From Candidatus Micrarchaeia archaeon (GTDB taxonomy: Archaea; Micrarchaeota; Micrarchaeia; Norongarragalinales; Norongarragalinaceae), in the NCBI GenBank assembly GCA_041648335.1, contig JBAZPG010000001.1, forward strand, positions 31,880-95,879: a stretch of DNA of 64,000 nt. The letters are read 5' to 3'. The translations under genes were made by a program, and so were the position numbers. Shown piece after piece: positions 29,931-63,049 of the stretch; position 1 is the stretch's first letter, and every line of letters starts with the position of its first letter. The notes under the pieces were generated by a model, which had not been told where the DNA came from, did no database searches, and saw only the letters and a program-made list of their open reading frames with translations.

Positions 29931-29935
29931 CACTT

Positions 29936-30106
29936 ATGGCTAAAATCGCCGAGTATATTGTTAAAATCTATTCTTCTAAAGACAAAAAGAAGCTCAAAGC
30001 AGGTTTGAAGGAATACGAATACGGAACAATCAACATTAGAGACCCCGGACTAAAAGAACACATAGGGGAAACCGTAACCGTCAAAGTCGAAAAGGCGAGA
30101 AAATGA
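29936..30106 (+). CDS. small basic protein (56 aa) preceding the methyltransferase, possible R-M controller/regulator
   Basis: MAKIAEYIVKIYSSKDKKKLKAGLKEYEYGTINIRDPGLKEHIGETVTVKVEKARK; AT-rich codon usage like the island. Confidence 0.35.
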   Translation: MAKIAEYIVKIYSSKDKKKLKAGLKEYEYGTINIRDPGLKEHIGETVTVKVEKARK

Positions 30107-30115
30107 AAACTAAAT

Positions 30116-31075
30116 TTGGATACTAGGGCTGCTAAATTGACTGTTAAAAGTTTAAAAAACGAAACGAAGAACACTAATACGCTTATTCCTAATCTTGCAA
30201 AAAACATAGACTACCTTAACACTCTACCTTCAAAAATAGCATCAATTTCAACCACCCACCGTTTGATTTTTGGCGATGCTAGAAACTTGTCTAAGATTGA
30301 AAATGAAACCGTACAATTAGTAGTAACCTCGCCACCATATTGGACTTTGAAAGAATACAACCAGATTGACGGTCAACTTGGGCACATCCAAGATTACGCT
30401 ATATTTCTTGAAGAACTCGATAAAATATGGACCGAATGCTTTAGAGTGCTAATTCCGGGCGGTCGTCTGATCATAGTGGTTGGAGATGTTTGTTTAAGCA
30501 GAAAAAAACACGGTCGACACCAAGTTATTCCTCTTCATGCAGATATTCAGACCCGCTGTCGTAACATTGGTTTCGATAATCTTGCGTCAATTATTTGGCA
30601 TAAGATTGCTAATGCAAAATATGAAGTCAAAGGTAATGGAAAAGGCTTTTTAGGTAAACCCTATGAACCAAACGCCATAATCAAGAATGATGTTGAATTC
30701 ATTCTTATGGAGAGAAAGCCAGGTGGATATCGCAAACCAACTGATAAAACGAGACTACTTAGTCTTATTCCACAAGAAAAATACAAGATTTGGTTTACTC
30801 AAGTTTGGGAAGGAGTTCGTGGCGCGTCTACGAAGGTGCACCCTGCACCGTTTCCAGAAGAATTAGCAGATAGACTAATCCGAATGTATAGTTTTGTTGG
30901 TGATACTGTATTAGATCCATTCTTAGGAACGGGCACCACTACCGTAGCTGCACTTAAATCTGGCAGAAATAGTCTTGGCGTAGAACTTGATCCCAAATAC
31001 CTCGAATTAGCAAAAAAACGGATTAATGCCACGATTTCTGAATCTAACGCAAATGCAACGTTGTTACTAGAATAG
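30116..31075 (+). CDS. DNA methyltransferase, beta-class amino-MTase (N4-cytosine or N6-adenine; SPPY motif IV before FxGxG motif I)
   Basis: LVVTSPPYW ... VLDPFLGTGTT. Confidence 0.8.
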   Translation: MDTRAAKLTVKSLKNETKNTNTLIPNLAKNIDYLNTLPSKIASISTTHRLIFGDARNLSKIENETVQLVVTSPPYWTLKEYNQIDGQLGHIQDYAIFLEELDKIWTECFRVLIPGGRLIIVVGDVCLSRKKHGRHQVIPLHADIQTRCRNIGFDNLASIIWHKIANAKYEVKGNGKGFLGKPYEPNAIIKNDVEFILMERKPGGYRKPTDKTRLLSLIPQEKYKIWFTQVWEGVRGASTKVHPAPFPEELADRLIRMYSFVGDTVLDPFLGTGTTTVAALKSGRNSLGVELDPKYLELAKKRINATISESNANATLLLE

Positions 31076-31110
31076 GCTTAGTTTTAAACGAGTTTGTTTT
31101 TCGTATTAGC

Positions 31111-31836
31111 ATGCCTATAACCGGCGATAGTTGTATAGCCGAATACTTACAAACACATCAATATCACCCGCGTTCAGATGCGCATGGAAACGAATTGGCG
31201 CGACTTATTGTTAAAGACTTAATGGAAAACTGCAAAGTGTTTAGAGAAGCAGCTTTATCGAAGCGCATTGTATTCGAATTGAATTATACTATCGGAAATG
31301 GTTTTGATAGCTGGAATATGGATTTAGTGGTCGGACCCCCAGAAAACCTCAACAAAATAGAAAAAACAGATTTAAATATTTTTAGAGGAATACCGAAAGA
31401 AATTTGGTTGGCTATTGATGCTAAATCAATTATGACTGAGCATAAGAAAGCGAGAAGAAATCGACAACGAGACCTTAATTCACTACAAGATTTATTACAT
31501 AGAAAGAATTCTAACACAATAGTAGCGGGAATCGTCGTAGTAAATATGTCCAAGAAATTTAAGTCTCCATTGAGGAACGGAGAGATAACTTTACATCCAA
31601 ATGTAGAAAATACCATAACCGAAACAATAGAGATGCTAAAACAAAATTTAAAGCAAGGAAATAACGAAAATGGGCTTGAGGCGTTAGGGGTAATTGTGGT
31701 AGATCATACTAATTTAGTTGATGACCAAACTAAGCTAATTGCTACGCCCCCTGCGCCTTCTTCATCTGACCGAATATTCTATAAAAACTTCATAACCGAA
31801 CTTTGTACTCTTTTTTCAGATAGACATGGGCAATAA
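31111..31836 (+). CDS. putative type II restriction endonuclease (PD-(D/E)xK-like D...DAK)
   Basis: follows MTase by 35 nt; MDLVVG...WLAIDAKS candidate catalytic motif. Confidence 0.45.
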   Translation: MPITGDSCIAEYLQTHQYHPRSDAHGNELARLIVKDLMENCKVFREAALSKRIVFELNYTIGNGFDSWNMDLVVGPPENLNKIEKTDLNIFRGIPKEIWLAIDAKSIMTEHKKARRNRQRDLNSLQDLLHRKNSNTIVAGIVVVNMSKKFKSPLRNGEITLHPNVENTITETIEMLKQNLKQGNNENGLEALGVIVVDHTNLVDDQTKLIATPPAPSSSDRIFYKNFITELCTLFSDRHGQ

Positions 31837-31900
31837 GGAACAAGGGGCTACGCTACTTTTTTTTTAAATATGCGAAAACAATAAAAGATATATGCTTTTC

Positions 31901-32815
31901 TTAGCTTATTTGCGGAGGCAGTTGGCTCAGCAAGCTATTATTTAGATATGATGCGGTAACCAAGCCCGGTATACCTGCAAACGAATCAATCATTCCAATA
32001 ACTTTGTCGGTAGTGGGGTTTATCACCGGACCCCCACTATTACCAAAAGTTACTGCCGCATCTTCTATAGCAAACGTTGGACTTAACGGCGTATTCCAAA
32101 AGTTTGAATTATTGTGAGCTATAGTCCCTACGTTAGCTACTTGTTCAAAAAGTCCATTTGGAGTCTGGGTTACGCCTAACGGATATCCAATAAACGCAAT
32201 ACGCATTCCTTTTGGAATTGAATAACTTTCTGATAAGGTCACGGCGGGCATGTTTACCGTTGCCTTAAGTATTATTACATCGGTGCCGATTTTTAATCTA
32301 TAATCTTCAAATGAAAATCTGGTTCCATCGCGTTTAAACCCAGTTAAGTTCAAGTGAGTGAAATAAGACGTGGGTAAATCAACCATGTGAACCGCAGTAA
32401 TCAAATAACCATCATTTCGTATGATAAAACCGGCGCCTAACGGAACTGGGCGACCTTGAGAATCAGTACCAAACAATTCTATTGTTGATTCAGATAAACT
32501 AGCAATAGATTGGGTTAATGCGGACTCGTTTTGAAGTTCGTTTACTGAATAATTTACGCTATTAATTTGTGTAACGAGTGCAGCCGTAGTATTCGTTTCT
32601 GCTTTCGTTGCTAATTGAAGTTGCATACCTTGAAAACCGGATTGTATTTGCCCGTTAAGCGAAAGATAAGCTCCCACTCCTAACGCCAAAACAACCAAAA
32701 ATCCGGCTACTACCCACCCCGCGTTCATAACTAAAGTTGTTGGGTTATCTCGTATAATAATAACCACTTTTCCGTCAATTGACGGCATTTTGCGGGGTTT
32801 GTTTGGCTTGCTCAT
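31901..32815 (-). CDS. membrane-anchored trypsin-like (S1) serine protease
   Basis: TAVHMV (His), GNSGGPV (Ser) motifs; N-terminal TM helix. Confidence 0.7.
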   Translation of the reverse strand: MSKPNKPRKMPSIDGKVVIIIRDNPTTLVMNAGWVVAGFLVVLALGVGAYLSLNGQIQSGFQGMQLQLATKAETNTTAALVTQINSVNYSVNELQNESALTQSIASLSESTIELFGTDSQGRPVPLGAGFIIRNDGYLITAVHMVDLPTSYFTHLNLTGFKRDGTRFSFEDYRLKIGTDVIILKATVNMPAVTLSESYSIPKGMRIAFIGYPLGVTQTPNGLFEQVANVGTIAHNNSNFWNTPLSPTFAIEDAAVTFGNSGGPVINPTTDKVIGMIDSFAGIPGLVTASYLNNSLLSQLPPQIS

Positions 32816-32922
32816 TTTAGCTCGCCCCCGGGACTTTTTGAGCAGTTTTCAGACATTTTTAGCAACTCCAACTTTTTTAGCAAAGCCACCTAAAGGAAAA
32901 CCGTTAAATTCCCCACGTTTTT

Positions 32923-36537: not shown

Positions 36538-36656
36538 AGCGGACAGCGGTCATAGGAGAGGGGCATACGCTCGTTCCCGTTCCGAACACGAAAGCAAAGC
36601 CCTCTTACGACTTCGCGAGTACTGTCTTATGACGGGAAAGCGGGTTGCTGCTGCCA
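36538..36656 (+). rRNA. rrf: 5S ribosomal RNA (stand-alone)
   Basis: CGGUCAUAG...GGGG.CAUAC...UUCCGAAC.CGAAAG..AAGCCC...GAGUACUG... collinear with archaeal 5S; ends uncertain by a few nt. Confidence 0.7.
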
Positions 36657-49838: not shown

Positions 49839-51140
49839 ATGAACATTGGTTTTTTGGGCGCAGCCGGCGAAGTCGGGCGCTCCTGCATACTCGTCGAGAA
49901 CGGGCGCAAGAAAACCCTGCTTGACGCGGGCGTGAAATTCAAGGAAGGCGAAGCGTTCCCCCTGCTCGAGAACCGCCTCATACCCAAGCTCAACAACGTG
50001 GTATTGACGCACGCACACATGGATCACTCGGGCTACCTGCCCGCGTTGTACGCGCACGGCTACAAGGGGAAAGTCATGCTCACAAAGCCCACGCGCGACT
50101 TGACGCAAGTGCTCCTCGCGGACTACTTGCGCATAAGCCACGACGTGCCCTACGACCAGGCGCACGTGACGAAATACTTACAGCACTGCCAGATACTCGA
50201 CTACGAACGCGAGCAGGCGGGCGTGTTGCTCCGCACCGCGGGGCACATACTCGGCAGCGCCACGGTTACGTTGAACGAGGGCGGGCACCGCATACTCTAC
50301 ACGGGCGACATCAACCTCCGCGACTCCCGCCTCCTCGAGGGAGCGAAGACGGATTACCGCGCGGACACGCTCATAATCGAGAGCACGTACGGAGCGGACG
50401 CGGACCGCCACCTGCCAACGAACGAGGCTACGCGCTACCTCGCGGAATCCATCAAGAAGACGTTCAAGAAAGGAGGGAAAGTCATCGTGCCCACGTTCGC
50501 CATAGGCCGCGGGCAGGAAGTGCTGTTCACCATCGAGAGCCAGATGCGCGCGAAAGCGATACCCAACTCGCCGATTTACATCGACGGGATGATTAACAAG
50601 ATACTGAAAATCTACCGCAACAACTCCATCCACCTGAACAAGGAGATACAGCGCCGGATACTCACGAGCGACCAGGACCCGTTCAAGAGCGAACACTATC
50701 ACGTGCCCGTCCGCAAGGACCGCGGCGACGTATTCCAGCACCACAAGGTAATCGTGCTCACCACGAGCGGGATGCTGAACGGCGGTCCGGTGCTCACCTA
50801 CATAAAGAAGCTGGCGCCCTTCCCCCAGAACAAGATAATACTCGTGGGCTACCAAGCCGAAGGCACGCGCGGGCGCGAACTCCTCGCGGGCGCGGACGAA
50901 CTAACCATAGACGACAGGAAAGTCCCGATAAACTGCGAGATTGACGAAGCCAAGTTCAGCGCGCACTCCGACCAGCACGAGTTACTCGAGCTCGTCAAAC
51001 GCGTCAAGGGCCTCAAGCGCGTCTACATAGTGCACGGCGAGAAAGAGAAGAGCGAAGAGCTTGCTCGGGCAATACAGCGCCGCCATTCCAGCGTGCGCGT
51101 CGAGTTACCCAAACTCGGCGAAGAATTCAAGTTCAACTAG
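49839..51140 (+). CDS. beta-CASP RNA-metabolising metallo-beta-lactamase (aCPSF2/RNase J-like)
   Basis: HAHMDHSGYLP, beta-CASP region, 433 aa. Confidence 0.85.
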   Translation: MNIGFLGAAGEVGRSCILVENGRKKTLLDAGVKFKEGEAFPLLENRLIPKLNNVVLTHAHMDHSGYLPALYAHGYKGKVMLTKPTRDLTQVLLADYLRISHDVPYDQAHVTKYLQHCQILDYEREQAGVLLRTAGHILGSATVTLNEGGHRILYTGDINLRDSRLLEGAKTDYRADTLIIESTYGADADRHLPTNEATRYLAESIKKTFKKGGKVIVPTFAIGRGQEVLFTIESQMRAKAIPNSPIYIDGMINKILKIYRNNSIHLNKEIQRRILTSDQDPFKSEHYHVPVRKDRGDVFQHHKVIVLTTSGMLNGGPVLTYIKKLAPFPQNKIILVGYQAEGTRGRELLAGADELTIDDRKVPINCEIDEAKFSAHSDQHELLELVKRVKGLKRVYIVHGEKEKSEELARAIQRRHSSVRVELPKLGEEFKFN

Positions 51141-51399
51141 TGCCCTTTCCAAGCGACTCGTAACGCTTCTGCGCCGCAGGCGTCAAACACCACTTCACCC
51201 AGCGCACGTAACCCTTCCCCACGCGCTGCACGAGGTGCTGACCCTCTAGGAACGCGAGCACCTTACCCGTGAACTCGTTGTCGCGGGCGATTTCGCGCGC
51301 CACCGCACGCGTGGTCAACGGCAGAGGATAAGAGTCGTAGAGCACGGACAACGCCGACTCCGCGATGCGCTGGAAATTCACTTGGGAAATACAAGACAT
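51133..51399 (-). CDS. small winged-helix-like protein
   Basis: 88 aa ORF. Confidence 0.4.
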   Translation of the reverse strand: MSCISQVNFQRIAESALSVLYDSYPLPLTTRAVAREIARDNEFTGKVLAFLEGQHLVQRVGKGYVRWVKWCLTPAAQKRYESLGKGTS

Positions 51400-52950
51400 T
51401 CAACCACGAAACGCAGCAGAAAATATTAAACTTGCGCTAATGACGATTAAACGCCAAAACCGCGCGTAAGCCCTGTAAAAGCACTGCTAGGGCCTGAAAA
51501 ACCAGCAAACCACAACCTGCAGCACACCAGTTCATTTCAAGCAGAACTACACCTAGGAAAACAAGGAAAAAATCAAAAAACCGGAAAAACCAAGTAAAAC
51601 AAAACGAAAAATTCAGCAAAAAACCAAACACTAACTAGGTTTTTTCATTAACCGCGTTTTTTGGCTCATTTTGAAAACCGACAAATAGTGGAACAAACCG
51701 AATTCCTTAAAACTACCATTTTGGTGTTTTGAAGCCAAAAATAACAACCGAATGTGCGCATCCAGACCGGCAATAAACCGGGCAAAACACAACAAAACCG
51801 AACGAACACAAAATACCATAATAGTATAAACCGCACGCAGAAAAAAGTGTTCGGAACACCATTTAGATGTAGCGAAACTACGGTTTAAGCCAAAAAGCCG
51901 GTTTTTAACGCAGAAATTCGTTTTGAGCCCGACCCAGTGGCTGCTTTTTGTCCCTAAATACCATAGAAATGCAACGAAAGCACACCTGCGGACCGGAGCA
52001 AACGCCAGGCGTTCCCATCAAAACAGTGTTCTCAAAATACCCGCGCACCATAATGGTATGCTGCGCCTCGCGAAAATATTCAACAAAAAGCCGGTTTGCA
52101 AAACCAATGCTCAGGCGTACGTAAACGCCGCACAAAAAACAGTAAAAAAAGCCCGGCAAAAACGAAAAAGAACACAAAGGGGCGGTTCAACGCGGGATGA
52201 ACTAAGCGCGGCTTTTCTTCAATCCGCTTAGGAAAGCCCGCTGTTTTTTGTTGTGTTGCGCCAAAACAAAGCCGATCGCCTCGTCCACACTCACGAAAAA
52301 CCCGAGCCGGGCCTGGAGCTCGCCGGCCAGGATTGCCAAATCCCTATACGTTTCTCCCCGAACGCGAATAACCTTGTCCAAAACAATTTCACCACTATAA
52401 CAAAGTATACAATAGCTATTTAATAGTTATTGTTACACGGTAAAAACGCGCTTGCCCGCGGCTCGGCTTTTTACCGGGCGCCCTCGGAATTTTCCAGTCC
52501 CAGAAAAACTGGGAAATGGGAAAAACGCCAAAAAACCACTGGAAAAAACCAGTGAAAACTGCTAAAAAAGGAAAAATCAAGTGGTTCAAGACAAAAAACG
52601 TGTTTGGTCCGGGGCTAAAACCGAATCCGGAAAACGAAAAATACCGCAACCCCCTGAAAAAATACCGTACGCCGTTGGCTTTGGATGAAAAAACGCTTTG
52701 AAAATGAAAAACCGGTTGGCGCGGCGGGCAATCAAACCGAATTTTGGTGCGAAAACGCGTTAAAACAAAAAACCGAGTGGGTACGCGGGTTTTTCGCATT
52801 GGAAACACTGCAAAAACGAAAAAACGGATTGGATCCGTGGTTTTTTGCCAGGAGGAAAACAAAAAACGCATTGAAAAAACAAAAACCGATTTGAAACAGG
52901 AAAAAACCGTTTGAAAAACGCGAAAAAACCGGCTTTTTTGAAAAACACGT
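51400..52950. other. about 1.55 kb ORF-free, A-rich (plus strand), GC-poor region with phased A5-6 tracts and several A-tract/T-tract-flanked hairpins; function unknown (curved DNA / ncRNA / origin-like?)
   Basis: no credible ORF in six frames; recurring AAAAAACCG / GAAAAAAC motifs; see finding. Confidence 0.6.
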
Positions 52951-53017
52951 GCGGGTGCGCGTTTTACGGGCGCGCATTAAAAAATCAAGCAGCGGAAAAC
53001 AAGAAAGGGCTTTAAAA

Positions 53018-55747
53018 ATGCAGGGTTTACGCAAGGAAGTTGTCGCGGTTGCGCGCGCCAAGGGCTTCGACGACTACACCCCCATCCAGAAAAAGGCCTC
53101 GCCCCGCATCCTCGCGGGGGAAAACCTGTTGGTCACTGCGCCCACGGGCTTCGGGAAAACCGAGGCAGCCATGCTCCCGGTGCTATCGCGCATGCTCGAC
53201 TTTAAGGATAAAGGGCAGCTGGCAGGCATTTGCACGCTTTATATCACACCTTTAAAAAGCCTTAACCGGGACATGCTGGAGCGCCTGACGTTCTGGGGCA
53301 AGGTGCTCGGGTTCGGGGTTGCGGTGCGGCACGGGGACACCAAGCCGAGTGAGAGGCAGAAGCAGCGGGACGCTCCGCCGCACCTCTTGGTTACGACGCC
53401 GGAGACCCTGCAATCCCTGCTCGTTGCGCCCAAGCTCAAGGACGCGCTCGCGAACGTGCGGTTCGTAATCGTGGACGAGGTGCACGAGCTCGCGGACTCC
53501 GAGCGGGGCGTCCAGCTCGCGGCAGGGTTGGCGCGCCTGCGTCTCAAGGCGCCGGGATTCCAAATCATAGGCTTGAGCGCGACCGTGCGGAACAAGGAGG
53601 CGGTCGCGCGCTTCCTGGCGCCCGACTGCGGGGTGGCGGAGCAAGAGCTCGGACGCCTGCTGGACATCCGCGTCGAGCTTCCGGACGGCGGGCGTCCCGA
53701 GTTCAAGGAACTGGGGTTGCGCGACGAAAGCAAGGCAGCGCTTGGGTTGGTGGTCGACTCCATCGAATCCAGCAAGAGGACTCTTGTTTTCGTGAACACG
53801 CGCTTCACGGCTGAGAGCCTGGGACATTTGCTTTCACAGACGCGCGTCGCCAATCAAATTGCAGTGCATCATTCGAGCCTGGCAAAAGAGGCGCGTTTGG
53901 AGGCTGAGGAGGAGTTCAAGCGCGAGGCAAGCAGCCTCAAGGCGATCGTGTGCACTTCTTCGCTCGAACTGGGCATTGACATAGGCGCGGTGGACTTGGT
54001 GGTGCAGTTCAACTCGCCGCGCCAAGTGTCCCGGCTGGTGCAGCGCATAGGCCGGAGCGGGCACCGCAAGAACCTCGTGCCAAAAGGAGTGATAATCGCG
54101 GGCGGGGAGCTGGACTGCCTCGAGGCGCTCGTCTTGAGGGAGAAGGCGCTCGCCGGGGAAATCGAGGAAACCCGCATCCGCTCGAACGCCCTCGACGTTG
54201 CCGGACACCAGCTCGCCGGGCTCGCGTTGGATTACGGGAGCATCACGCTGGCGGACGCGCTCGGGATACTGCGCACGGCGAAGCCGTTCGAAACGCTTTC
54301 ACCCGCTGCCCTCGAGGCAGTCGCGAGGCAGATGGCGCAGGCGAAGTGTTTCGCGTTCGACGGCGAACGCGTCACGGCGTCCAAGCGCACCCTGCTTTAC
54401 TACTACGAGAATTTGGGCACCATACGCGACTCCAAGAAGCGTTGGATACGGGACGCGGTCACCCGCAAGAACGTGGGGTTGCTGGACGAGGCGTTCGTTT
54501 CGGAATATTTGCAGGAGGGCGTCACGTTCATTACGCGCGGGAAAGCCTGGCGGGTGATAAGCGCGGAAGAGGAAATCCAAGTCGAACCCTCTTCGGACTT
54601 GACCGCCGCGATTCCCGAATGGGTGGGTGAAGAGATACCGGTGACCGCGGAAGTCGCGACCGCGGTTGAGGACGCGTTCGCCCGCCTCCCGGAATGCGAC
54701 GCGAAGCTGGGGAAAAAACTCGCGGCGTACGCCAAGGAACAGGCGGGCTTCTTCACACCCTCGAGGGAAAAGTGCTTTGTGGAGGGCGGGGACCGCTGGA
54801 CGGTGGTGCACTCGTTCTGGGGCTCGAAGGCGAACGAGGCGCTTGCGCGCGCGCTGGCGTTCCACTTCGCGTTGACGCGCCGCGAGTCGGTGCGCACGAA
54901 AGCCGGGGCGTACGGCGTGCTCCTCGAGTTCGACAAACACAAACCAGCGGCGGACGTGTGCGCGGCGCTCGACGTTCTCAAAAAGGGGCGCGACGCCCGG
55001 ACGCTCCTGGAAACGCGCCTCCCGGATACGCGCATCTACCGCCGCAAGCTCATAGGCGTCGCCAAGGCAATGGGGCTCGTCTCGAAAACCGCGGACCTGC
55101 AGGAGTTCGGCTTGGCGCGCCTGGCGCGCGCCTTCAAGGGGACGCCCGCGGAGAGCGAGGCGCTTGCGGAAGTGTGGTTCGACGAGCTCGACGCGGACGG
55201 GATGGAGGCGGCGTTGCGGAGGACGCGTTTTGAAACCGTCCCGTTCCGCGAGTCAGCTTCCCCGCTTGCCGCGGAGTTCTTCGATTACGGTTCGTTCAGC
55301 GAACTCATCGTGCCCGGCGCTCCCTCGGAGAAGCTCGTGCAGGCGTTCCGCGACAACCTACTCGAGAAACGCGAGGGGCTGTACTGCCAGTACTGCGGGA
55401 AAACGCACACGCTTTCCCTGGGTGAGGCACCCGAAGAATTGCGTTGCCCGTACTGCAAGTCCAGCCAGCTCACCCGCAAGCGTTACAAGGCCGTGCTCGA
55501 AAAGCGCAAGGCGCGCCGCAAACTAACCGAAGAGGAAACAAAGGAATTGAATGACGCCTACCGTTCCGCGAACCTGCTTTCGGTGAACGGGCGCCGCGCG
55601 CTGCACGCGTTGAACACTTTCGGCGTTGGCCCCGAGACCGCCGCGCGCCTCCTGGGCCGGGCACCCTCGGATGACGCGGGATTCTACGGGGCGCTCCTCG
55701 AGGCGCAGAAGAATTTCATCAAGACCCGTCGCTTTTGGCGGGTTTGA
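53018..55747 (+). CDS. lhr: Lhr-type ATP-dependent DExH helicase with C-terminal zinc ribbon
   Basis: TAPTGFGKTEAA (motif I), DEVHEL (DExH), SAT, helicase C; CQYCG...CPYCK; ATG 53018 follows TTTAAAAA. Confidence 0.8.
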   Translation: MQGLRKEVVAVARAKGFDDYTPIQKKASPRILAGENLLVTAPTGFGKTEAAMLPVLSRMLDFKDKGQLAGICTLYITPLKSLNRDMLERLTFWGKVLGFGVAVRHGDTKPSERQKQRDAPPHLLVTTPETLQSLLVAPKLKDALANVRFVIVDEVHELADSERGVQLAAGLARLRLKAPGFQIIGLSATVRNKEAVARFLAPDCGVAEQELGRLLDIRVELPDGGRPEFKELGLRDESKAALGLVVDSIESSKRTLVFVNTRFTAESLGHLLSQTRVANQIAVHHSSLAKEARLEAEEEFKREASSLKAIVCTSSLELGIDIGAVDLVVQFNSPRQVSRLVQRIGRSGHRKNLVPKGVIIAGGELDCLEALVLREKALAGEIEETRIRSNALDVAGHQLAGLALDYGSITLADALGILRTAKPFETLSPAALEAVARQMAQAKCFAFDGERVTASKRTLLYYYENLGTIRDSKKRWIRDAVTRKNVGLLDEAFVSEYLQEGVTFITRGKAWRVISAEEEIQVEPSSDLTAAIPEWVGEEIPVTAEVATAVEDAFARLPECDAKLGKKLAAYAKEQAGFFTPSREKCFVEGGDRWTVVHSFWGSKANEALARALAFHFALTRRESVRTKAGAYGVLLEFDKHKPAADVCAALDVLKKGRDARTLLETRLPDTRIYRRKLIGVAKAMGLVSKTADLQEFGLARLARAFKGTPAESEALAEVWFDELDADGMEAALRRTRFETVPFRESASPLAAEFFDYGSFSELIVPGAPSEKLVQAFRDNLLEKREGLYCQYCGKTHTLSLGEAPEELRCPYCKSSQLTRKRYKAVLEKRKARRKLTEEETKELNDAYRSANLLSVNGRRALHALNTFGVGPETAARLLGRAPSDDAGFYGALLEAQKNFIKTRRFWRV

Positions 55748-55834: not shown

Positions 55835-56308
55835 TCATTTCACAACTATCCTCGGCTTCGCGGGCTTGACGGGAGCATAAAGCGCGTCCGGGTTCGAGAG
55901 GAAGTACGCTGCGGCCTCCTTGTTCAGCGGGTCCGCGGGGTTCGGGTTCGCGAGCAAATGGCGAAGGCTCTTCACGAGTGCGAGCACGGTCTGGTTCTCA
56001 GCCCAGTCGTTCAAGAGCTGGATGCACACCTTGCCATCCGCCTCGCGGATGTTAGGGTGGAAAATGGGGGTGAGCCAGGTTACGTCGATGCCGCCGGGAT
56101 AGGGGTAGCCGCGCAGGAGCTCGATTTTCACGCTGTGGCTGTCGCGCTGGAAGATGCGTCCGGACTCGCGGTAGAGTGCCGGACCCTTCAGGCTCACCAC
56201 GTACTCGGTGAGCTCGGCGTTGGATTCGAAGCGCTCCCCGCTCTCCTGCAATTCCTCGAACTCGCTTTCGAGGCGGCGGCGCCAAATCGGTTCGGGAAGG
56301 GAAGACAA
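55835..56308 (-). CDS. ubiquitin-conjugating enzyme E2 (UBC fold)
   Basis: HPNIREADGKVCIQLLNDWAENQTVLALVKSLRHLLANPNPADP is the canonical UBC active-site signature (HPN...G.IC...L...W.P). Confidence 0.85.
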   Translation of the reverse strand: MSSLPEPIWRRRLESEFEELQESGERFESNAELTEYVVSLKGPALYRESGRIFQRDSHSVKIELLRGYPYPGGIDVTWLTPIFHPNIREADGKVCIQLLNDWAENQTVLALVKSLRHLLANPNPADPLNKEAAAYFLSNPDALYAPVKPAKPRIVVK

Positions 56309-56339
56309 AACGCAGACCTCTTGTTTTGGCGGTTAAACC

Positions 56340-56582
56340 CTAACCGCCCGTCGGGTCGGGCAAGAGCGTGAGCTGGTCCCCTTCCTTTACGCCCGCGTCC
56401 GCGAGGGTGAGCTCGGGGTCGAGTATCTGATTGTTCTTGGAGGCGAGGACGAACCGGTCCTTGAGTTTCAGGTTCTCGGTGAGGACCTCGAGCACGGAGG
56501 CGACCGTAAAGCCGGCTTCGACCGCGACAACGATTTCCTTTCCGGACGTGCTTTGTATTATCGTGATATTGAATTCAACCAT
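56340..56582 (-). CDS. ubiquitin-like beta-grasp protein ending in -GG (80 aa)
   Basis: MVEFNITIIQSTSGKEIVVAVEAG...GDQLTLLPDPTGG-stop; parallels Ub (TLTGKTITLEV...LHLVLRLRGG); the longer ORF-track frame upstream of this ATG is not credible. Confidence 0.8.
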   Translation of the reverse strand: MVEFNITIIQSTSGKEIVVAVEAGFTVASVLEVLTENLKLKDRFVLASKNNQILDPELTLADAGVKEGDQLTLLPDPTGG

Positions 56583-56639
56583 GTGTGCATCGCCCCCTTG
56601 GCGGTTTATTATTAAATCAAGGGTATAAATGTTTTCGGT

Positions 56640-56990
56640 ATGGCGGACGAAGACGGGTTCACTGAAATCGGTTTCCCCGAAGGGGCGGACAACGAAGCGG
56701 GCAAGGACGCGGACAAGCCCGCGGAAGCAGTGAGGAAGCCGCGCATCCTCGAGCCGGCCCCGAGCAAGCCCGCAATCGTTTCGGTAACCCGCCCAACCGA
56801 AATGCCCGAAGTCGCGAGGCACTGGGCAACGCGGGACATCGAACCCATGGAACGCATACCCGCGCCCGCGCAGCTCGAGGGCGAATCGCGGGAGGCGCTC
56901 GTGGAGAACGCGTTGCGTTTGCACGAGGCGCGCGAAGCAGAGAAACCCAAGGGTTTTCTCTCAAGGTTGAAGGGCGCATTTTTCAAGTGA
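56640..56990 (+). CDS. hypothetical acidic/Pro-rich protein, first gene of the JAMM-RING operon
   Basis: 116 aa; 7 nt before the JAMM gene; no motif. Confidence 0.45.
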   Translation: MADEDGFTEIGFPEGADNEAGKDADKPAEAVRKPRILEPAPSKPAIVSVTRPTEMPEVARHWATRDIEPMERIPAPAQLEGESREALVENALRLHEAREAEKPKGFLSRLKGAFFK

Positions 56991-56996
56991 CTTGAC

Positions 56997-57434
56997 ATGT
57001 TCGAGGTTTACTTTGACGCGGAGGCAATGGCTGCAGCCGTACGCGAGTTCGAAGCCGCAGCCGGGCGCGGACGCGAGGGAATCGGGTTCTTCCTAGGGAA
57101 GGTTTACTCCTGGCAGGGCGGCTTGTTCGTGCGCGCAACCGAATTCGTTACCGGTGAAAGCGACGCCACCGCGGTATCGGTGCGGTTCGCGGAGGGCGCG
57201 TTTGCGGGAATCGCGGGCGCGCGGGGGGACGACTTGATAGCGATTTGGGCGCACTCGCATCCGGATTACGGCTGCTTCATGTCCGAACGCGATTTGGAGA
57301 CGCACGAGAATTATTTCGCTAACGACTACAATTACGCACTCGTGGTGGACCCGGTGCGGCGCGAGAAGAAGCTGTTCAAGGTGCGGGACGGGAAATGCCT
57401 CGAGGCATCGTTCGCAGTAGTGGAGAAGAAGTAA
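56997..57434 (+). CDS. JAMM/MPN+ metalloprotease (Rpn11-like deubiquitylase/isopeptidase)
   Basis: E..(30)..HSHPDYGCFMSERD = ExnHxHx7Sx2D JAMM motif. Confidence 0.85.
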   Translation: MFEVYFDAEAMAAAVREFEAAAGRGREGIGFFLGKVYSWQGGLFVRATEFVTGESDATAVSVRFAEGAFAGIAGARGDDLIAIWAHSHPDYGCFMSERDLETHENYFANDYNYALVVDPVRREKKLFKVRDGKCLEASFAVVEKK

Positions 57435-57435
57435 A

Positions 57436-58161
57436 ATGGCTAAACCGAAACTCAAGGCGTTCGACAAGGCGGTCTTTGACGTAATCCGCGCGGGAGTCTA
57501 CCGCACCGAGCACATCGCCTCGAAACTCCACGTGGACGAAGCGGCGCTCAAAGTGCGTTTGGGCGAACTCGCAGTTGCGGGTCTCGTCGTGGTGGATGGG
57601 GAGGGTGTGCGCCTGGGAATCGAGGGGTTCAACGCCTATCCCGCGGCGAAGAAGCGCGCGAAGAAAACAAAGGAAAACGAAAACTCGGCAATCGTTCAAT
57701 TGAAAACCGAGCCAGCTGTTGCGTCGGTTGAACCAGCGAAAACCGAGTCCATCAAACCTGCACCAGTTGCGTTAAAACCAATTGAACCCGAGGCGTTGCC
57801 CGCGCCGGTTACCATGAGCGACTTGCACGAACTCCTCAAACTCGGGGCGCCCACGGGAAGCGCGCGGCAGCCGAACGCGCAGAAAGAAGAGCCGCCGCTG
57901 GTGAAGACCGAGGCGCGTCCGTTGACTAAGGGCGGAGACGAAGTTTGCGAGTTGTGCAAGGGGCGCTTCGCGCTCGCGGTGAAAGGCAAGGGGCACCCCA
58001 AGTTCGGGCACTGCTTCTGCGGGGCAGCCTACCACAAGGACTGCTACGAGGCACTCATTAACGACACGAAGAAGTGCGTGCGTTGCGGGCGCAAGCTCGA
58101 ATTATACCTGGACCGCCGGAGCGAGGAAGCCGTGCACGCCATCCGCGGCGTGTTCGACTGA
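57436..58161 (+). CDS. wHTH + RING/PHD-type (C4HC3) zinc-finger protein, candidate E3 ubiquitin ligase
   Basis: C-terminal CELCx18CFCx4HKDCx10CVRC; N-terminal MarR-like wHTH; Pro/Ala linker. Confidence 0.75.
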   Translation: MAKPKLKAFDKAVFDVIRAGVYRTEHIASKLHVDEAALKVRLGELAVAGLVVVDGEGVRLGIEGFNAYPAAKKRAKKTKENENSAIVQLKTEPAVASVEPAKTESIKPAPVALKPIEPEALPAPVTMSDLHELLKLGAPTGSARQPNAQKEEPPLVKTEARPLTKGGDEVCELCKGRFALAVKGKGHPKFGHCFCGAAYHKDCYEALINDTKKCVRCGRKLELYLDRRSEEAVHAIRGVFD

Positions 58162-58167
58162 AGCAAA

Positions 58168-58917
58168 TTAAACATGCACGGGGCAGCCCTTGCGCTTCGG
58201 GATTCCGTAGAGCGTGAAGCGCGCGTTCAACCCGTCGTAGTAAAGCGATTTCCCGGCGAACGACTCGCGCCCGTGCACGAGCTTGGCGAACTCCGTGGAC
58301 TGTATGCCCGCGATTACGCTCGTGGTGGATGGGAGCGCGGGCATCTTGGGGTCCAGGAAGTCGAGCGCGTCCCCAGTGCACGCGTACTTCTTCCAGAGGA
58401 GCTTGTAGTCGCGGCGGCTCAAGGCGCATTCGAAGCACGACGACGGAGCGTTCACCACGCTCACCCGCCCGTTGAACCCGGTGGTGCCGCCGTCGATGAC
58501 GGGCGCCTTAGCGTAGCACTGCGCGTTCAAGTGGAGGCGCGCCCCCACGTTGTCCAGACAGCCGAACGCGTAGTCCGCCGAGGAAAAAACCGCCTCGTCC
58601 AAGTGCTCCACCCGCTTGAGGATGACGCGCACGCGGGCGTCCGGGTTAATGCGCGTCGCCTCGCGGGCGATTACCTCGGCTTTCTTTCGCCCCACGTCGG
58701 CGTGCGTGAAGAAGCAGCAGCGGTTCAGGTTCGCCGTGACTATTTCGTCGTAGTCCACGAGCGTGATTTCGCGGACGCCGAACTGGAGGAGGTTCTTGAC
58801 GAGTTCGTTGCCGAGCGCGCCCGCGCCAACTACCAGGCAGCGCGCCTTCGAGACCGCGTCCTGGTTCCAACCGTCCACGCGCTTTTGGCGGTCGTACGCG
58901 TCGTCGTCTATTCCCAT
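58168..58917 (-). CDS. E1-like ubiquitin-activating enzyme (ThiF/MoeB/UBA fold)
   Basis: YDRQ..., LVVGAGALGNELVKNL, DYDEIVTANLNR, CFEC zinc motif. Confidence 0.85.
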   Translation of the reverse strand: MGIDDDAYDRQKRVDGWNQDAVSKARCLVVGAGALGNELVKNLLQFGVREITLVDYDEIVTANLNRCCFFTHADVGRKKAEVIAREATRINPDARVRVILKRVEHLDEAVFSSADYAFGCLDNVGARLHLNAQCYAKAPVIDGGTTGFNGRVSVVNAPSSCFECALSRRDYKLLWKKYACTGDALDFLDPKMPALPSTTSVIAGIQSTEFAKLVHGRESFAGKSLYYDGLNARFTLYGIPKRKGCPVHV

Positions 58918-61692: not shown

Positions 61693-61897
61693 TTGGGAAC
61701 GCAGGGCTTTGCACAAGACAAAATAAAACCTTGCCGAACCAAGCATGTCTTTTACGGCATCTCTTACAACCCATAAATGTCGCTTAAACACCACTTACGG
61801 CTGTGTGGAGGCGTCTTTTATAAGAGACGAATGGCACATAAGTGCAGCTTACGAAAGCAGAAAGCCTTTTATATGCCTCGGATGTTGTTTTTGACGT

Positions 61898-63049
61898 ATG
61901 GTGGAAGTGTTCGAAGCTCGCGTGAAGCTTTTGCAGGAGCTGGGTTGGAGTGAGAACCCGTTCGTGAAGGACTTGCGCGCAAGCGACCGCGACTCATTCT
62001 TGAAGTATTACTGCCCGTTCGAGGGCGCGAAGATTCTCGAGCGCCTGGCGTTCGAGTCGAAAGCATGCCTGTTGTTCGGGCCCAAGGGCGTTGGAAAAAC
62101 GTCCGCGCTCTATTACGTGAGTTACGGTTTGCCGGAATCCGAGTTCGATTGCGTTTTCCTGAAGGAGCCGCCGAAGTCGCTTGATGATTTAGCCGAGGCG
62201 TTCAACTGCAAGCCGTCGGAGAACTGGATTTCGCGGCTGCTCGGCGGGAAGCCAGCGAAGGTTACCCGGAAGGGGCTCGCGGATTGCCTGAAACGCAGGA
62301 GCAAGAAAATCGTGTTGTTCGTGGACGAGGCGCACCTGGTTGAGGATAAGTCCATGTACATGGAGTTCAAGTATCTGTTGGACGACGTGCCGCGCCTGCG
62401 CATGGTTTTCTCCGCGTTGGGAAAAGCGGATTTTCCGGACTCGCTCCTCCAGCTAGTTGGCGAATCGAACTGTTTCCAGCGCCGCGAATTCTCCGAACAG
62501 GAGATGCGGCGCATCATCGAGCACCGCATCGCCGCGGTGGGCGGCAAGGGCTTGAAGCCGTTCCCGGACGCGTTCCTCTCGGACGCGCTCAAGGGGCAGA
62601 ATCTCCTGTCGCCGCGTTATGTTTTCGACGAGTTGAACGCTTTCCTCGCGAAGCTCGCGTTGGGGAAGAGCGAGTGGAAGGGTGCGGTGGAATACGCGGA
62701 CAACCCTATAATCCAGAGCGCCATCCGGGGCGCGCGGGGCGAGACGCTCGCAAAGGGGAACGCTGCGTGGTGGAACCAGTTGAGTCCGTCCCAACGCCAG
62801 ATTCTCGAGTTGCTCGTGCGCAAGGGCGAGGGCGTTGTTTTGAGCGACATACGCAAGGAAACGGGTTTGAGCCAGAACACCGCTTTCAACGCGCTCTACC
62901 AGTTGCGCGGGGACGACAAGGCGGAGTTGAAGCGCAAGCCGGGCGTGCCGTTCCCGCTCGTGCGCGTGGAAGCGCAGATGGTGGGCGGGCGCAAGAGGAA
63001 TGTTTACGTTGCGGTGGAAAAGGTCCGCAACTTGTTCACGTTGCATTAG
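61898..63049 (+). CDS. AAA+ ATPase with C-terminal winged helix (divergent Orc1/Cdc6-like or related)
   Basis: Walker A LLFGPKGVGKTS, Walker B LFVDEAH, C-terminal wH QRQILELLVRKGEGVVLSDIRKETGLS. Confidence 0.45.
   Translation: MVEVFEARVKLLQELGWSENPFVKDLRASDRDSFLKYYCPFEGAKILERLAFESKACLLFGPKGVGKTSALYYVSYGLPESEFDCVFLKEPPKSLDDLAEAFNCKPSENWISRLLGGKPAKVTRKGLADCLKRRSKKIVLFVDEAHLVEDKSMYMEFKYLLDDVPRLRMVFSALGKADFPDSLLQLVGESNCFQRREFSEQEMRRIIEHRIAAVGGKGLKPFPDAFLSDALKGQNLLSPRYVFDELNAFLAKLALGKSEWKGAVEYADNPIIQSAIRGARGETLAKGNAAWWNQLSPSQRQILELLVRKGEGVVLSDIRKETGLSQNTAFNALYQLRGDDKAELKRKPGVPFPLVRVEAQMVGGRKRNVYVAVEKVRNLFTLH

What the first reader, a model, noticed from the sequence alone, without database searches (positions are those of the whole stretch)
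51400..52950. 1.5-kb ORF-free, strand-biased A-rich region with phased A-tracts and A/T-clamped hairpins
Between the winged-helix gene and the Lhr helicase there is no credible ORF, and composition departs sharply from the GC-rich background. The plus strand carries dozens of A5-A6 tracts (AAAAAACCG, GAAAAAAC) spaced at roughly one to two helical turns, e.g. 52840-52950 AAAAACGCATTG AAAAAAC AAAAACCGATTTG AAACAGG AAAAAACCGTTTG AAAAACGCG AAAAAACCGGCTTTTTTG. This is a pattern expected to give strong intrinsic DNA curvature. Several short inverted repeats are bracketed by an A-run on one side and a T-run on the other, resembling bidirectional intrinsic-terminator-like or protein-binding structures (CCACTGG-A6-CCAGTG at 52536-52554; A5-CGGAT-TGG-ATCCG-TGG-T6 at 52816-52846; AAAAAGCCGGTTTTT at 51893-51907). 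Possibilities are a replication-origin-like/curved nucleoid-organising locus, a highly structured non-coding RNA, or a decayed mobile-element remnant.
Basis: seen in the sequence. Interest (0 to 1): 0.65.

Follow-up and report, generated by a model that had tools for sequence, protein, structure and literature searches.

The report
Conserved curved non-coding locus, possible origin
A 1.6-kb A-tract-rich, predicted-curved stretch upstream of the Lhr helicase gene in an uncultivated Micrarchaeota archaeon holds a conserved array of six palindromic protein-binding boxes and one overlooked 59-residue gene, and is best read as a protein-assembly site on DNA, possibly an unusual replication origin, not as an RNA gene.

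Summary
The composition claim is real. The region has 37.6% A and 18.7% T, 37 A5+ tracts against 9 T5+, and GC 0.44 against 0.57 for the window. Helical phasing (10.25 bp) holds only in the right 500 bp. A wedge model predicts strong curvature.

"ORF-free" is wrong. 52202-52381(-) encodes a 59-aa protein conserved in relatives. The locus is composite:
- a 390-bp non-coding element (51680-52065) with six 15-bp dyad boxes (~ACACCAT-N-ATGGTGT);
- the small gene, with its promoter and oligo-T terminator;
- A-tract spacers, the right one built from degenerate repeats.

The box array, with its spacing, sits upstream of Lhr in six Micrarchaeota species. The spacers do not align between species and flip A/T polarity, yet keep 10-10.5-bp phasing. 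That points to a DNA-level function.

Rfam, RNAalifold and fold z-scores give no support for a structured RNA. There is no similarity to phages, plasmids or viral contigs.

GC skew turns from negative to positive at the locus in all six species. An Orc1/Cdc6-fold gene lies 8.9 kb away. Canonical ORB boxes are absent.

Best reading: an origin-like nucleoprotein assembly site (confidence about 0.4). The main rival is a multi-operator regulatory region.

The parts
51133..51399 (-). Left flank: 88-aa putative winged-helix gene. Its TATA-like box lies about 20-33 nt upstream of the ATG, inside 51400-51440.
   Evidence: Weak HTH_69 hit (E 0.0086, below the Pfam cut-off). 76% identical in L045. The promoter is read from the sequence.
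51400..51679 (.). A-tract spacer 1: A 43%, 6 A5+ tracts, predicted curved. Contains the conserved inverted repeat AGTTCATTTCAAGCAGAACT at 51529-51548.
   Evidence: Phasing is borderline here (10.0 bp, p about 0.08) but significant in the same slot of L045 and L047 (p 0.007). The slot is T-rich in L047 and L050.
51680..52065 (.). Conserved non-coding element: array of six 15-bp dyad boxes (~ACACCAT-N-ATGGTGT) at 51713-51727, 51813-51827, 51856-51870, 51958-51972, 52015-52029 and 52045-52059. Spacing is 100/43/102/57/30 bp.
   Evidence: nhmmer finds it in the same orientation upstream of Lhr in L045, L047-49, L050 (E 1e-60 to 1e-87), L051 (4e-6) and L057/58 (2e-5). Alignments. The PWM scan puts every site of 10 bits or more inside the element in all six loci. 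Pattern search: 6 matches against 0.72 expected, 4 of them here. Not coding. No consensus RNA fold.
52066..52201 (-). 3' region of the small gene. Read on the minus strand: a GTTCA-N8-TGAAC hairpin (52185-52202) followed by four oligo-T runs (T5, T5, T7, T6), which appear as the plus-strand A-tracts. Likely its transcription terminator.
   Evidence: Sequence. The hairpin is conserved in L045, L047 and L051. That oligo-T tracts terminate archaeal RNA polymerase is established knowledge, not tested here.
52202..52381 (-). Real 59-aa gene (TTG start) for a basic protein with beta-alpha-alpha(-alpha) topology, possibly ribbon-helix-helix.
   Evidence: 64% and 58% identical in L045 and L047; longer homologues in L051, L055 and L058. 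tblastx is best in the coding frame (88 bits against 50-62). An identical protein is annotated in an NCBI Micrarchaeia MAG. The AF2 single-sequence model has pLDDT 78.6, but the fold search is not significant and there are no Pfam, PHROG or NCBIfam hits.
52382..52440 (-). Promoter of the small gene: a TATA-like box (minus strand TTAAATAGC) flanked by the inverted repeat TATAACAAAG / TTATTGTTACA (52396-52438). This is the least stable 60-bp duplex of the locus.
   Evidence: Sequence. The same TGTAACAAAG ... CTTTTGTTACA arrangement occurs in L045 and L047. Duplex stability rank 4 in the window.
52441..52950 (.). A-tract spacer 2: about 23 A5+ tracts phased at 10.25 bp. Built from degenerate repeats: a 30-33-nt A-run/hairpin/T-run unit at 52701, 52762 and 52814, and 20-22-bp tandem units at 52856-52931. 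Has the strongest predicted curvature of the locus (peak at 52553). Specific to this genome's lineage.
   Evidence: There is no alignable counterpart in relatives. L045 and L047 carry a Cys-rich 151/152-aa gene in this slot; L050, L051 and L058 carry other phased AT-rich DNA.
52951..53017 (+). Lhr promoter region: TATA-like CATTAAAAAATC about 35-46 nt before the ATG at 53018.
   Evidence: Sequence. The 909-aa ATG-start form matches the length of the homologues.
53018..55747 (+). Right flank: Lhr-type helicase, the anchor for all comparisons between species.
   Evidence: Pfam DEAD, Helicase_C, WH_Lhr and DEAD_assoc. Homologues.
61898..63049 (+). Context: 383-aa AAA+ plus winged-helix protein with an Orc1/Cdc6-like fold, 8.9 kb to the right. 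It sits in a conserved block with Nre, a histone and a RecJ/GAN-like gene.
   Evidence: AF2 pLDDT 87.6. The top Foldseek PDB hits are Cdc6/Orc1/ORC (8s0e_A 6.8e-9, 2qby_A/B, 2v1u_A). There is no sequence-level Orc1 hit. Synteny.

Best explanation
The locus is a lineage-specific, conserved site where proteins assemble on double-stranded DNA. It is not a transcript.

Its core is a 390-bp array of six 15-bp dyad-symmetric boxes with fixed spacing. The boxes are presumably bound by dimers of an unidentified DNA-binding protein. The core is flanked by A/T-tract DNA whose helical phasing, and hence intrinsic curvature, is maintained by selection even though its sequence and strand polarity turn over.

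Both strands carry many oligo-T stop signals, so the spacers are probably transcriptionally quiet. A small autoregulated beta-alpha-alpha gene sits inside the locus.

The most likely role is a chromosomal replication origin, or an origin-associated organising site. In that model the box array recruits the initiator or accessory proteins, and the curved, AT-rich spacers help wrapping and unwinding. The locus would work with the divergent Orc1/Cdc6-fold protein encoded 8.9 kb away.

Shown here: the anatomy, the conservation, the absence of coding and RNA-structure signals, the phasing and predicted curvature, and the skew switch. Inferred: protein binding, transcriptional silence and origin function.
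For: (1) It is the largest non-coding stretch in the 64-kb window of a compact genome. A 0.8-1.9-kb non-coding locus is kept upstream of Lhr in six species whose Lhr is 50-66% identical.
(2) The box array is conserved with its spacing and is unique to this locus in every 12-64 kb examined.
(3) A/T tracts are phased at 10.0-10.5 bp in the window's right spacer, L050 right, L045 left and upstream of the small gene, L047 left and L058 (p from 0.000 to 0.023). These sequences do not align, and the polarity flips between A and T.
(4) Predicted curvature is above both the window and the shuffles.
(5) Not coding outside the 59-aa gene. No RNA signal.
(6) Mean GC skew is negative to the left and positive to the right of the locus in all six species, although the left-flank genes differ. 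In the window the detrended cumulative GC skew has its minimum at 52673 and the MK disparity its maximum at 53267.
(7) The neighbourhood is replication-related: an Orc1/Cdc6-fold protein, Nre, a histone and a DHH/RecJ-like gene.
(8) The locus is a synteny breakpoint. The right block is conserved and the left block differs between species.
Against: - No canonical ORB or mini-ORB. TTCCNNNNGAA has 0 matches in the locus, and there is only one 3-mismatch match to the Pyrococcus mini-ORB. The motif definition comes from PMC1904270.
- The Orc1-like gene is 8.9 kb away, not adjacent. Its own 100-200-bp upstream region carries a different repeated box, GTCTTTTATA, and could itself be the origin.
- The window shows an equally strong GC-skew switch of opposite sign near 17 kb, so skew is noisy here.
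- The least stable duplex segments of the window lie in a low-GC island, not here.
- More distant Micrarchaeota have a compact Lhr upstream region and no such element.
- A gene sits inside the locus.
- 15-bp palindromes are also typical of ordinary operators.
Confidence: 0.4

Rival explanations
1. Multi-operator regulatory or nucleoid-organising region. The dyad boxes are operators for a small transcription factor: the 59-aa protein, a neighbouring winged-helix protein, or a factor encoded elsewhere. The factor wraps the curved DNA to control the flanking small genes, and possibly Lhr. The A/T tracts act as terminators or insulators and as upstream curved DNA.
For: - 15-bp palindromes with roughly helical spacing are classic dimeric transcription-factor sites.
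- A small winged-helix-type gene always lies just left of the element, transcribed away from it: the 88/100-aa gene in the window and L045, and the 157-190-aa family in L050, L051 and L058.
- In L051 and L058, box 1 sits 26-55 bp upstream of that gene's start.
- TGTAAC(G/A)AAG beside boxes 3 and 4 resembles the half-site of the inverted repeat at the small gene's promoter.
- The A-runs at 52066-52201 are plausibly that gene's oligo-T terminator.
Against: - The left-flank winged-helix genes of different species are not homologous (BLASTP E 5.9), yet the boxes are conserved.
- In the window, L045 and L050 the boxes lie 220-650 bp from the nearest promoter.
- Six boxes spread over 350 bp, plus 0.8-1.9 kb of non-coding DNA, is far more than is usual for an operator in a compact DPANN genome.
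- It does not explain the skew switch.
Confidence: 0.27
2. Domesticated remnant of an integrated plasmid or virus: a CopG-like small regulator plus an iteron-type, curved, AT-rich origin, captured upstream of Lhr in the ancestor of this clade.
For: - Repeated boxes, A-tract curvature and a small beta-alpha-alpha regulator together resemble plasmid replication and copy-control regions (established knowledge).
- The slot between the small gene and Lhr has variable gene content: a Cys-rich 151-aa gene, a 139-aa membrane ORF, and others.
- The element is restricted to one clade.
Against: - No Rep, integrase or att-like features, and no tRNA nearby.
- No similarity to 72,556 plasmids, 50,697 phages or IMG/VR contigs, at either DNA or protein level. 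No PHROG hits.
- The small gene (58-64% aa identity) and the element (about 60% nt identity) have diverged about as much as Lhr (63-66%). They therefore behave as vertically inherited, selected chromosome parts.
Confidence: 0.1
3. One or more non-coding RNA genes, for example a roughly 60-nt RNA running from a TATA-like box over box 2 (51822) to the T-run at 51902-51906, or an A-rich long transcript.
For: - TATA-like sequences overlap box 2 in several species and are followed about 25 nt later by (T)AGTGGAAG or AGTGTTCGG and then a T-run.
- One compensatory A-T to G-C change occurs in box 1 of L047.
- Several hairpins are followed by T-runs.
Against: - No Rfam match even at E of 10 or less.
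- RNAalifold energies are -6.0 and -3.3 kcal/mol, and the predicted pairs merely join half-sites of different boxes.
- Fold z-scores are only -1.35 to -1.83.
- The strand polarity of the spacers flips between species.
- There are 37 oligo-T runs on the minus strand and 9 on the plus strand, which would stop archaeal RNA polymerase repeatedly.
Confidence: 0.08
4. The right-hand 52441-52950 stretch alone is neutral filler. It was left after loss of the genes that occupy this slot in relatives and was then expanded by replication slippage of A-rich 20-60-nt units.
For: - It has no alignable counterpart in any relative. L045 and L047 have a 151/152-aa gene in this slot.
- Degenerate tandem and dispersed repeats make up much of it.
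Against: - 10.25-bp phasing at 0/300 shuffles.
- The same phased A/T-tract character is seen in the non-homologous DNA of the corresponding slots in L050 and L058. That argues for selection on a physical property and against drift.
Confidence: 0.12

Closest known systems
Archaeal chromosomal origins (oriC with ORB/mini-ORB boxes and an AT-rich unwinding element, e.g. Pyrococcus oriC, Sulfolobus oriC1)
   Same: A long AT-rich intergenic region in a compact genome. Multiple short dyad-symmetric repeats clustered at one locus. A nucleotide-skew switch. Replication genes, including an Orc1/Cdc6-fold protein, nearby.
   Different: The boxes (ACACCAT-N-ATGGTGT) lack the TTCC...GAA core that defines ORB and mini-ORB (PMC1904270). 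The initiator-like gene is 8.9 kb away, not adjacent. A protein gene sits inside the locus. The flanks are dominated by helically phased A-tracts rather than a single unwinding element. Origin activity is untested.
Iteron-type plasmid origins with intrinsically bent A-tract DNA and small ribbon-helix-helix copy-control proteins (e.g. CopG of pMV158; bent origins of pSC101 and R6K). Comparison from general knowledge.
   Same: Repeated binding boxes, phased A-tracts and a very small beta-alpha-alpha regulator gene that has its own palindromic operator.
   Different: The locus is chromosomal and vertically inherited. There is no Rep gene. There is no sequence or protein similarity to any plasmid, phage or viral record searched. 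The ribbon-helix-helix fold of the 59-aa protein is not confirmed.
Multi-box archaeal operator regions such as the Ss-LrpB control region (three regularly spaced 15-bp palindromic boxes that wrap DNA). Comparison from general knowledge.
   Same: 15-bp imperfect palindromes, several per region, with conserved spacing, next to small DNA-binding-protein genes.
   Different: Six boxes spread over 350 bp, mostly hundreds of bp from any promoter. The neighbouring regulator genes are not conserved between species, whereas the boxes are.
Accessory origin motifs bound by small nucleoid proteins (the ucm/UBP system of Sulfolobus oriC1, PMC12141716)
   Same: The idea that an origin needs non-ORB motifs bound by a small basic protein.
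   Different: ucm is a single 11-bp motif and UBP has a different fold. No homology is shown here. This is only an analogy.

Membership tests
Archaeal oriC (ORB-type origin) | Clustered ORB/mini-ORB repeats with the conserved TTCC...GAA core | tested here: not met
   TTCCNNNNGAA has 28 matches in the window but none in 51400-53017. The Pyrococcus mini-ORB has one match at 3 mismatches, at 52532. The motif definition is from PMC1904270. The conserved repeats here are a different 15-bp palindrome.
Archaeal oriC (ORB-type origin) | AT-rich, easily unwound intergenic stretch | tested here: inconclusive
   GC is 0.36-0.48 against 0.57 for the window. However, the least stable duplex segments of the window lie in a low-GC island. 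The locus ranks 4th (60-bp window) and 12th-14th (100-bp window).
Archaeal oriC (ORB-type origin) | Immediately adjacent orc1/cdc6 gene | tested here: not met
   The only candidate is a 383-aa protein with an Orc1/Cdc6-like fold at 61898-63049, 8.9 kb away. It is not recognised as Orc1 at the sequence level.
Archaeal oriC (ORB-type origin) | Strand-composition (GC skew / Z-curve) switch at the site | tested here: inconclusive
   Skew runs from negative to positive at the locus in six of six species. The window's skew minimum is at 52673 and its MK maximum at 53267. A second switch of opposite sign near 17 kb, together with the short flanks, limits the weight of this.
Archaeal oriC (ORB-type origin) | Replication initiates there (marker frequency, 2D gels, ARS activity) | not testable with these tools
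   Needs read-depth profiles of the source metagenome or an experiment.
Intrinsically curved DNA (phased A-tracts) | A-tracts repeated in phase with the helix (10-11 bp), beyond what composition gives | tested here: met
   Met for 52416-52950: period 10.25, 0/300 shuffles. Not met for the central element or the region as a whole. Wedge-model curvature is above the shuffles (0/300) and 8 of the window's top 20 peaks lie here. Physical curvature was not measured.
Structured non-coding RNA | Match to a known family, or a conserved secondary structure with covariation | tested here: not met
   Rfam gives nothing at the gathering threshold or at E of 10 or less. RNAalifold gives -6.0 and -3.3 kcal/mol. 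z-scores are -1.35 to -1.83.
Ribbon-helix-helix (CopG/Arc/MetJ) proteins, for the 59-aa gene | N-terminal beta-strand followed by two helices, with family-level sequence or fold similarity | tested here: inconclusive
   The AF2 model shows short N-terminal strands, then helices at 12-26, 32-40 and 45-58 (pLDDT 78.6). Foldseek against PDB gives no hit with E below 1. No Pfam, NCBIfam, PHROG or PDB-sequence hit.
Integrated mobile element or plasmid remnant | Similarity to mobile-element genes or DNA, or integrase/att/Rep hallmarks | tested here: not met
   No match in plasmids, phages or viral contigs. No PHROG hits. No integrase, Rep or tRNA in or beside the locus.

The most novel reading that the evidence does not exclude
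A clade of Micrarchaeota uses a previously undescribed kind of archaeal replication origin. It would be specified by an array of 15-bp ACACCAT-N-ATGGTGT dyad boxes with fixed spacing, not by ORB boxes. The array is embedded in helically phased, intrinsically curved A/T-tract DNA and carries its own small DNA-binding protein gene. It would work with a highly divergent Orc1/Cdc6-fold initiator that sequence-based annotation does not recognise.
Probability: 0.3. Interest if true: 0.7.

Novelty: new variant of a known kind. Interest (0 to 1): 0.5.

Why it matters
As far as I found, no replication origin has been defined in DPANN archaea (literature searches). Their initiator proteins are so divergent that annotation pipelines miss them.

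A conserved, locus-specific box array in phased curved DNA, near an Orc1/Cdc6-fold gene, is a concrete and testable origin candidate for uncultivated Micrarchaeota.

Even if it is not an origin, it shows selection on a physical DNA property. The helical phasing of A/T tracts is maintained across species while the sequence and strand polarity turn over.

It also corrects the annotation. There is a real 59-aa gene in a stretch taken to be ORF-free, and a called 61-aa ORF (52516-52701) is probably spurious.

Tried and rejected
- Rfam, at the gathering threshold on the whole window and at E of 10 or less on 51000-53300: only chance-level hits.
- tRNA scan: none.
- RNAalifold on five species, both strands: almost no consensus structure.
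- Single-sequence folding of the element and the right spacer, both strands: z from -1.35 to -1.83.
- tblastx for hidden coding regions: only the 59-aa gene. The 151-aa minus-strand ORF (52416-52871) and the 102-aa plus-strand ORF (51923-52231) have no family hits and no conservation. The similar-length 151/152-aa ORFs in L045 and L047 are a different, real Cys-rich protein.
- Forty-one more distant Micrarchaeota Lhr loci: no A-rich region and no element.
- JGI metagenome scan with the small protein: only three loci, all L047-like.
- Viral contigs, plasmids and phages: nothing.
- Exact look-ups of the 59-aa protein: not on record.
- Canonical ORB searches: negative.
- Duplex-stability scan: not diagnostic.
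- Gene-orientation-corrected GC-skew regression within the window: two breakpoints of similar weight, so not decisive.
- Fold search with the 59-aa model: not significant.
- Literature searches for Micrarchaeota or DPANN origins: nothing relevant.
- An alignment of all six small-protein homologues was too divergent for locus scanning.
Full report
ORGANISM AND CONTEXT

The window comes from an uncultivated Micrarchaeota (DPANN) archaeon. Every Lhr homologue found is from Micrarchaeota MAGs. The window is identical to part of ENA contig ERZ27249422 k141_467856 (533 kb).

To the left of the finding lie a beta-CASP nuclease gene (49839-51140, +) and an 88-aa putative winged-helix gene (51133-51399, -). 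To the right is Lhr (ATG at 53018, 909 aa).

Further right there is a conserved block:
- a ubiquitin-like E2/Ubl/JAB/E1 cluster;
- D-aminoacyl-tRNA deacylase;
- Nre;
- a 383-aa AAA+/winged-helix protein;
- a histone;
- a DHH/RecJ-like gene.

CHECK OF THE OBSERVATION

Composition is as described.
- The region has A 37.6%, T 18.7% and GC 43.7%, against a window GC of 57.4%.
- There are 37 A5+ tracts against 9 T5+ tracts.
- 18 of the window's 46 A6+ tracts lie in 2.4% of its length.
- Other gaps of the window have 0-1.1 A/T tracts per 100 bp. This locus has 2.9-4.3.

Phasing is only partly confirmed.
- A periodogram of tract centres against dinucleotide shuffles shows a 10.25-bp signal, with a 22-bp harmonic, in 52416/52450-52950. 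The z-score is about 6.6, and 0/300 shuffles reach the observed power.
- The signal is borderline in the left spacer (p about 0.08).
- It is absent in the central part and in the region taken as a whole.
- Part of the signal comes from degenerate 20-22-bp tandem repeats at 52856-52931.

A wedge-model curvature calculation used Bolshoy parameters recalled from memory, so it is only semi-quantitative.
- The region averages 10.8 degrees per helical turn, against 6.0 for the window.
- 8 of the 20 strongest peaks in 64 kb lie here.
- The mean is above all 300 shuffles.

The statement that there is no credible ORF is wrong (see point 3 below).

ANATOMY

Comparison with relatives shows that the region is composite. 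Relatives were found through Lhr. L045/46 has 66% Lhr identity, L047-49 63%, L050 55%, L051/52 52% and L053-59 51%.

(1) 51680-52065 is a conserved non-coding element.
- blastn aligns window 51108-52088 with L045 at 61% identity over 1 kb (E 3e-58), and 51655-51976 with L047.
- An nhmmer profile finds the element, always in the same orientation upstream of Lhr, in L045, L047-49 and L050 (E 1e-60 to 1e-87). It finds it more weakly in L051 (4e-6) and L057/58 (2e-5).
- It finds nothing in 41 more distant Micrarchaeota Lhr loci.
- What is conserved is mainly six 15-bp imperfect palindromes, consensus ACACCAT-N-ATGGTGT. In the window they start at 51713, 51813, 51856, 51958, 52015 and 52045.
- Their spacing is nearly the same in all species: 100/43/102/57/30 in the window, 89/44/102/57/30 in L045 and 99/44/102/86 in L047.
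- A weight matrix built from the boxes (so partly circular) finds every site of 10 bits or more inside the element in all six loci, and nothing above 8.7 bits in the remaining 62 kb of the window.
- An independent pattern search gives 6 matches at 3 mismatches or fewer, against 0.72 expected. Four of them lie within 350 bp.

(2) The element is not coding and not a structured RNA.
- tblastx gives low scores that do not depend on the frame.
- RNAalifold on five species gives -6.0 kcal/mol (plus strand) and -3.3 kcal/mol (minus strand) over about 417 columns. The few predicted pairs merely join half-sites of different boxes.
- Fold z-scores are -1.35 and -1.72.
- Rfam finds nothing.

(3) 52202-52381(-) is a real gene.
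- Its 59-aa product is 64% identical in L045 and 58% identical in L047. Longer homologues occur in L051, L055 and L058.
- Its tblastx score is highest in the coding frame.
- An identical protein is annotated in an NCBI Micrarchaeia MAG.
- Its promoter (52382-52440) has a TATA-like box flanked by an inverted repeat, TATAACAAAG / TTATTGTTACA, which is conserved in L045 and L047.
- Its 3' end has a conserved GTTCA-N8-TGAAC hairpin followed, on the minus strand, by four oligo-T runs. This accounts for the plus-strand A-tracts at 52066-52201 as its probable terminator.
- A single-sequence AF2 model (pLDDT 78.6) has a beta-alpha-alpha-alpha topology compatible with ribbon-helix-helix. The fold search is not significant and no family matches, so the fold assignment stays open.

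(4) The spacers (51400-51679 and 52441-52950) do not align between species.
- The right spacer is specific to this genome. L045 and L047 have a Cys-rich 151/152-aa gene in that slot. L050, L051 and L058 have other AT-rich DNA there.
- The right spacer is built from degenerate repeats. A 30-33-nt A-run/hairpin/T-run unit occurs at 52701, 52762 and 52814, and 20-22-bp tandem units follow.
- The A-versus-T polarity is not conserved. Where the window is A-rich, L047 and L050 are T-rich on the same strand.
- The 10.0-10.5-bp phasing of A/T tracts recurs nonetheless: L050 right (0/300), L045 left (0.007), L045 upstream of the small gene (0.023), L047 left (0.007) and L058 (0.007).
- A physical property of the duplex therefore seems to be under selection. 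A transcript does not.

HOW IT MOST LIKELY WORKS

The evidence favours a site where proteins assemble on DNA.
- It contains a fixed-geometry array of dyad boxes for a dimeric binder.
- The array is framed by intrinsically curved, AT-rich DNA.
- There are 37 oligo-T runs on the minus strand and 9 on the plus strand. These should stop archaeal RNA polymerase in both directions. This is an inference from established knowledge of archaeal termination.

I consider a replication origin, or an origin-associated organising site, the most likely role (confidence about 0.4). Reasons for:
- It is the largest non-coding stretch in the window and is retained in six compact genomes.
- It lies at a synteny breakpoint. 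The right block is conserved and the left block differs.
- Mean GC skew is negative to the left and positive to the right in all six species, even though the left-flank genes differ.
- In the window the detrended skew minimum (52673) and the MK-disparity maximum (53267) fall on the locus.
- The 383-aa protein 8.9 kb to the right has no sequence-level Orc1 match. Its model, built from a 31-sequence alignment (pLDDT 87.6), nevertheless has Cdc6/Orc1/ORC structures as its best PDB matches: 8s0e_A at 6.8e-9, then 2qby_A/B and 2v1u_A.

Reasons against:
- There are no canonical ORB or mini-ORB boxes.
- The initiator-like gene is not adjacent. It has its own repeated GTCTTTTATA boxes upstream.
- Skew in the window also switches, in the opposite sense, near 17 kb.
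- Duplex stability is not uniquely low here.
- The element is absent from other Micrarchaeota.

RIVALS

- A multi-operator regulatory or nucleoid-organising region (0.27). A small winged-helix-type gene always lies just left of the element, and box 1 overlaps its promoter in L051 and L058. However, those genes are not homologous across species, and most boxes lie far from any promoter.
- A domesticated plasmid or virus module (0.10). It is disfavoured by the lack of any mobile-element similarity and by divergence levels that match Lhr.
- Non-coding RNA genes (0.08). It is disfavoured as set out above.
- The right-hand spacer alone as slippage-generated filler (0.12). It is disfavoured by the conserved phasing.

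COMPARISON WITH KNOWN SYSTEMS

The locus works most like an archaeal oriC or an iteron-type bent plasmid origin. It fails the defining ORB test and the adjacency test for canonical oriC, and it has none of the hallmarks of a mobile element. It also resembles multi-box operator regions such as the Ss-LrpB control region, but it is larger and lies further from promoters. I therefore do not file it as a member of any of these. If functional as proposed, it would be a new variant of a known kind.

VERDICT

It is wrong about the absence of genes. The structured-RNA one is not supported. The mobile-remnant one is unlikely for the conserved core.

Interest is moderate (0.5). This is a concrete, conserved and testable origin candidate in a phylum where origins are undefined, together with evidence for selection on DNA shape. 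Function still rests on inference.

Noticed in passing
window 55835-58917: A eukaryote-like ubiquitin system cluster: E2 (UQ_con, 55835-56308 -), a beta-grasp Ubl (56340-56924 -), a JAB deubiquitinase (56997-57434 +), an unknown 241-aa protein (57436-58161 +) and an E1 ThiF (58168-58917 -). It is conserved directly downstream of Lhr in all close relatives.
   Followed up: partly
window 61898-63049: A 383-aa protein that Pfam, NCBIfam and PDB sequence searches do not recognise as Orc1/Cdc6. Sources call it only 'ATP-binding protein'. Its AF2 model (pLDDT 87.6) best matches Cdc6/Orc1/ORC structures. It is 50-73% identical across Micrarchaeota, so it is better conserved than Lhr.
   Followed up: yes
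window 61795-61897; L047 16013-16220; L050 16382-16572; L045 17513-17658: The short intergenic region upstream of the Orc1-like gene carries 3-6 copies of a GTCTTTTATA(AG) box. One of them forms the palindrome GTCTTTTATAAGAGAC. The boxes are conserved in four species. They could be stacked promoters, an autoregulatory site or the true origin.
   Followed up: partly
window 28550-32850: A low-GC island (GC 0.36-0.41; GC3 0.30-0.33, against about 0.75 elsewhere) that starts inside a DUF2298 membrane-protein gene. It contains an N6/N4 DNA methylase (30116-31075), an unknown 241-aa ORF and a trypsin-like peptidase. It is probably horizontally acquired and possibly a restriction-modification unit. 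It holds the least stable duplex DNA of the window.
   Followed up: partly
window 11788-11915 and 36542-36656: A 128-nt tRNA gene, presumably with an intron, is found by Rfam but missed by ARAGORN. A 5S rRNA gene stands alone, with no other rRNA gene in the window.
   Followed up: no
L045 6010-6380: A GC-rich insertion made of several perfect hairpins (e.g. GCAACGCCTGTTGGCGTTGC, GCGGACTCGCGAGTCCGC, GCAGTCCGAACGCGGACTGC). It lies between the box array and the small gene and is absent from the window and from L047. It could be a small mobile repeat or an RNA.
   Followed up: no
L045 6819-7274 (-); L047 7397-7855 (-): A Cys-rich 151/152-aa protein, 44% identical between the two species, with no family match. 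It occupies the slot between the small gene and Lhr and is missing from the window, where the phased A-tract repeats lie instead.
   Followed up: partly
window 52516-52701 (+) and 52949: The public gene call of a 61-aa ORF in the A-tract spacer is Lys-rich read-through of A-runs and is not conserved, so it is probably spurious. The longest Lhr ORF starts at GTG 52949 (932 aa), but homologues support the ATG at 53018 (909 aa).
   Followed up: partly
L050 5952-6425 (-); L051 2835-3332 (-); L047 4945-5424 (-); L058 3640-4212 (-): A 157-190-aa protein family with no Pfam match sits just left of the box array in four species and is absent from the whole 64-kb window. The window and L045 have an unrelated 88/100-aa winged-helix-like gene in the equivalent position.
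   Followed up: partly
L050 7530-7925; L051 4548-4815; L058 6215-6425: A repeated GAAAA(A)CTGCCT(A/G)TT motif, 2-3 copies per species, lies in the AT-rich DNA between the small gene and Lhr or the next gene. The window has only looser versions: GAAAAACTGGGAAAT at 52503, GAAAACTGCTAAAA at 52555 and GGAAACACTGCAAAA at 52801.
   Followed up: partly
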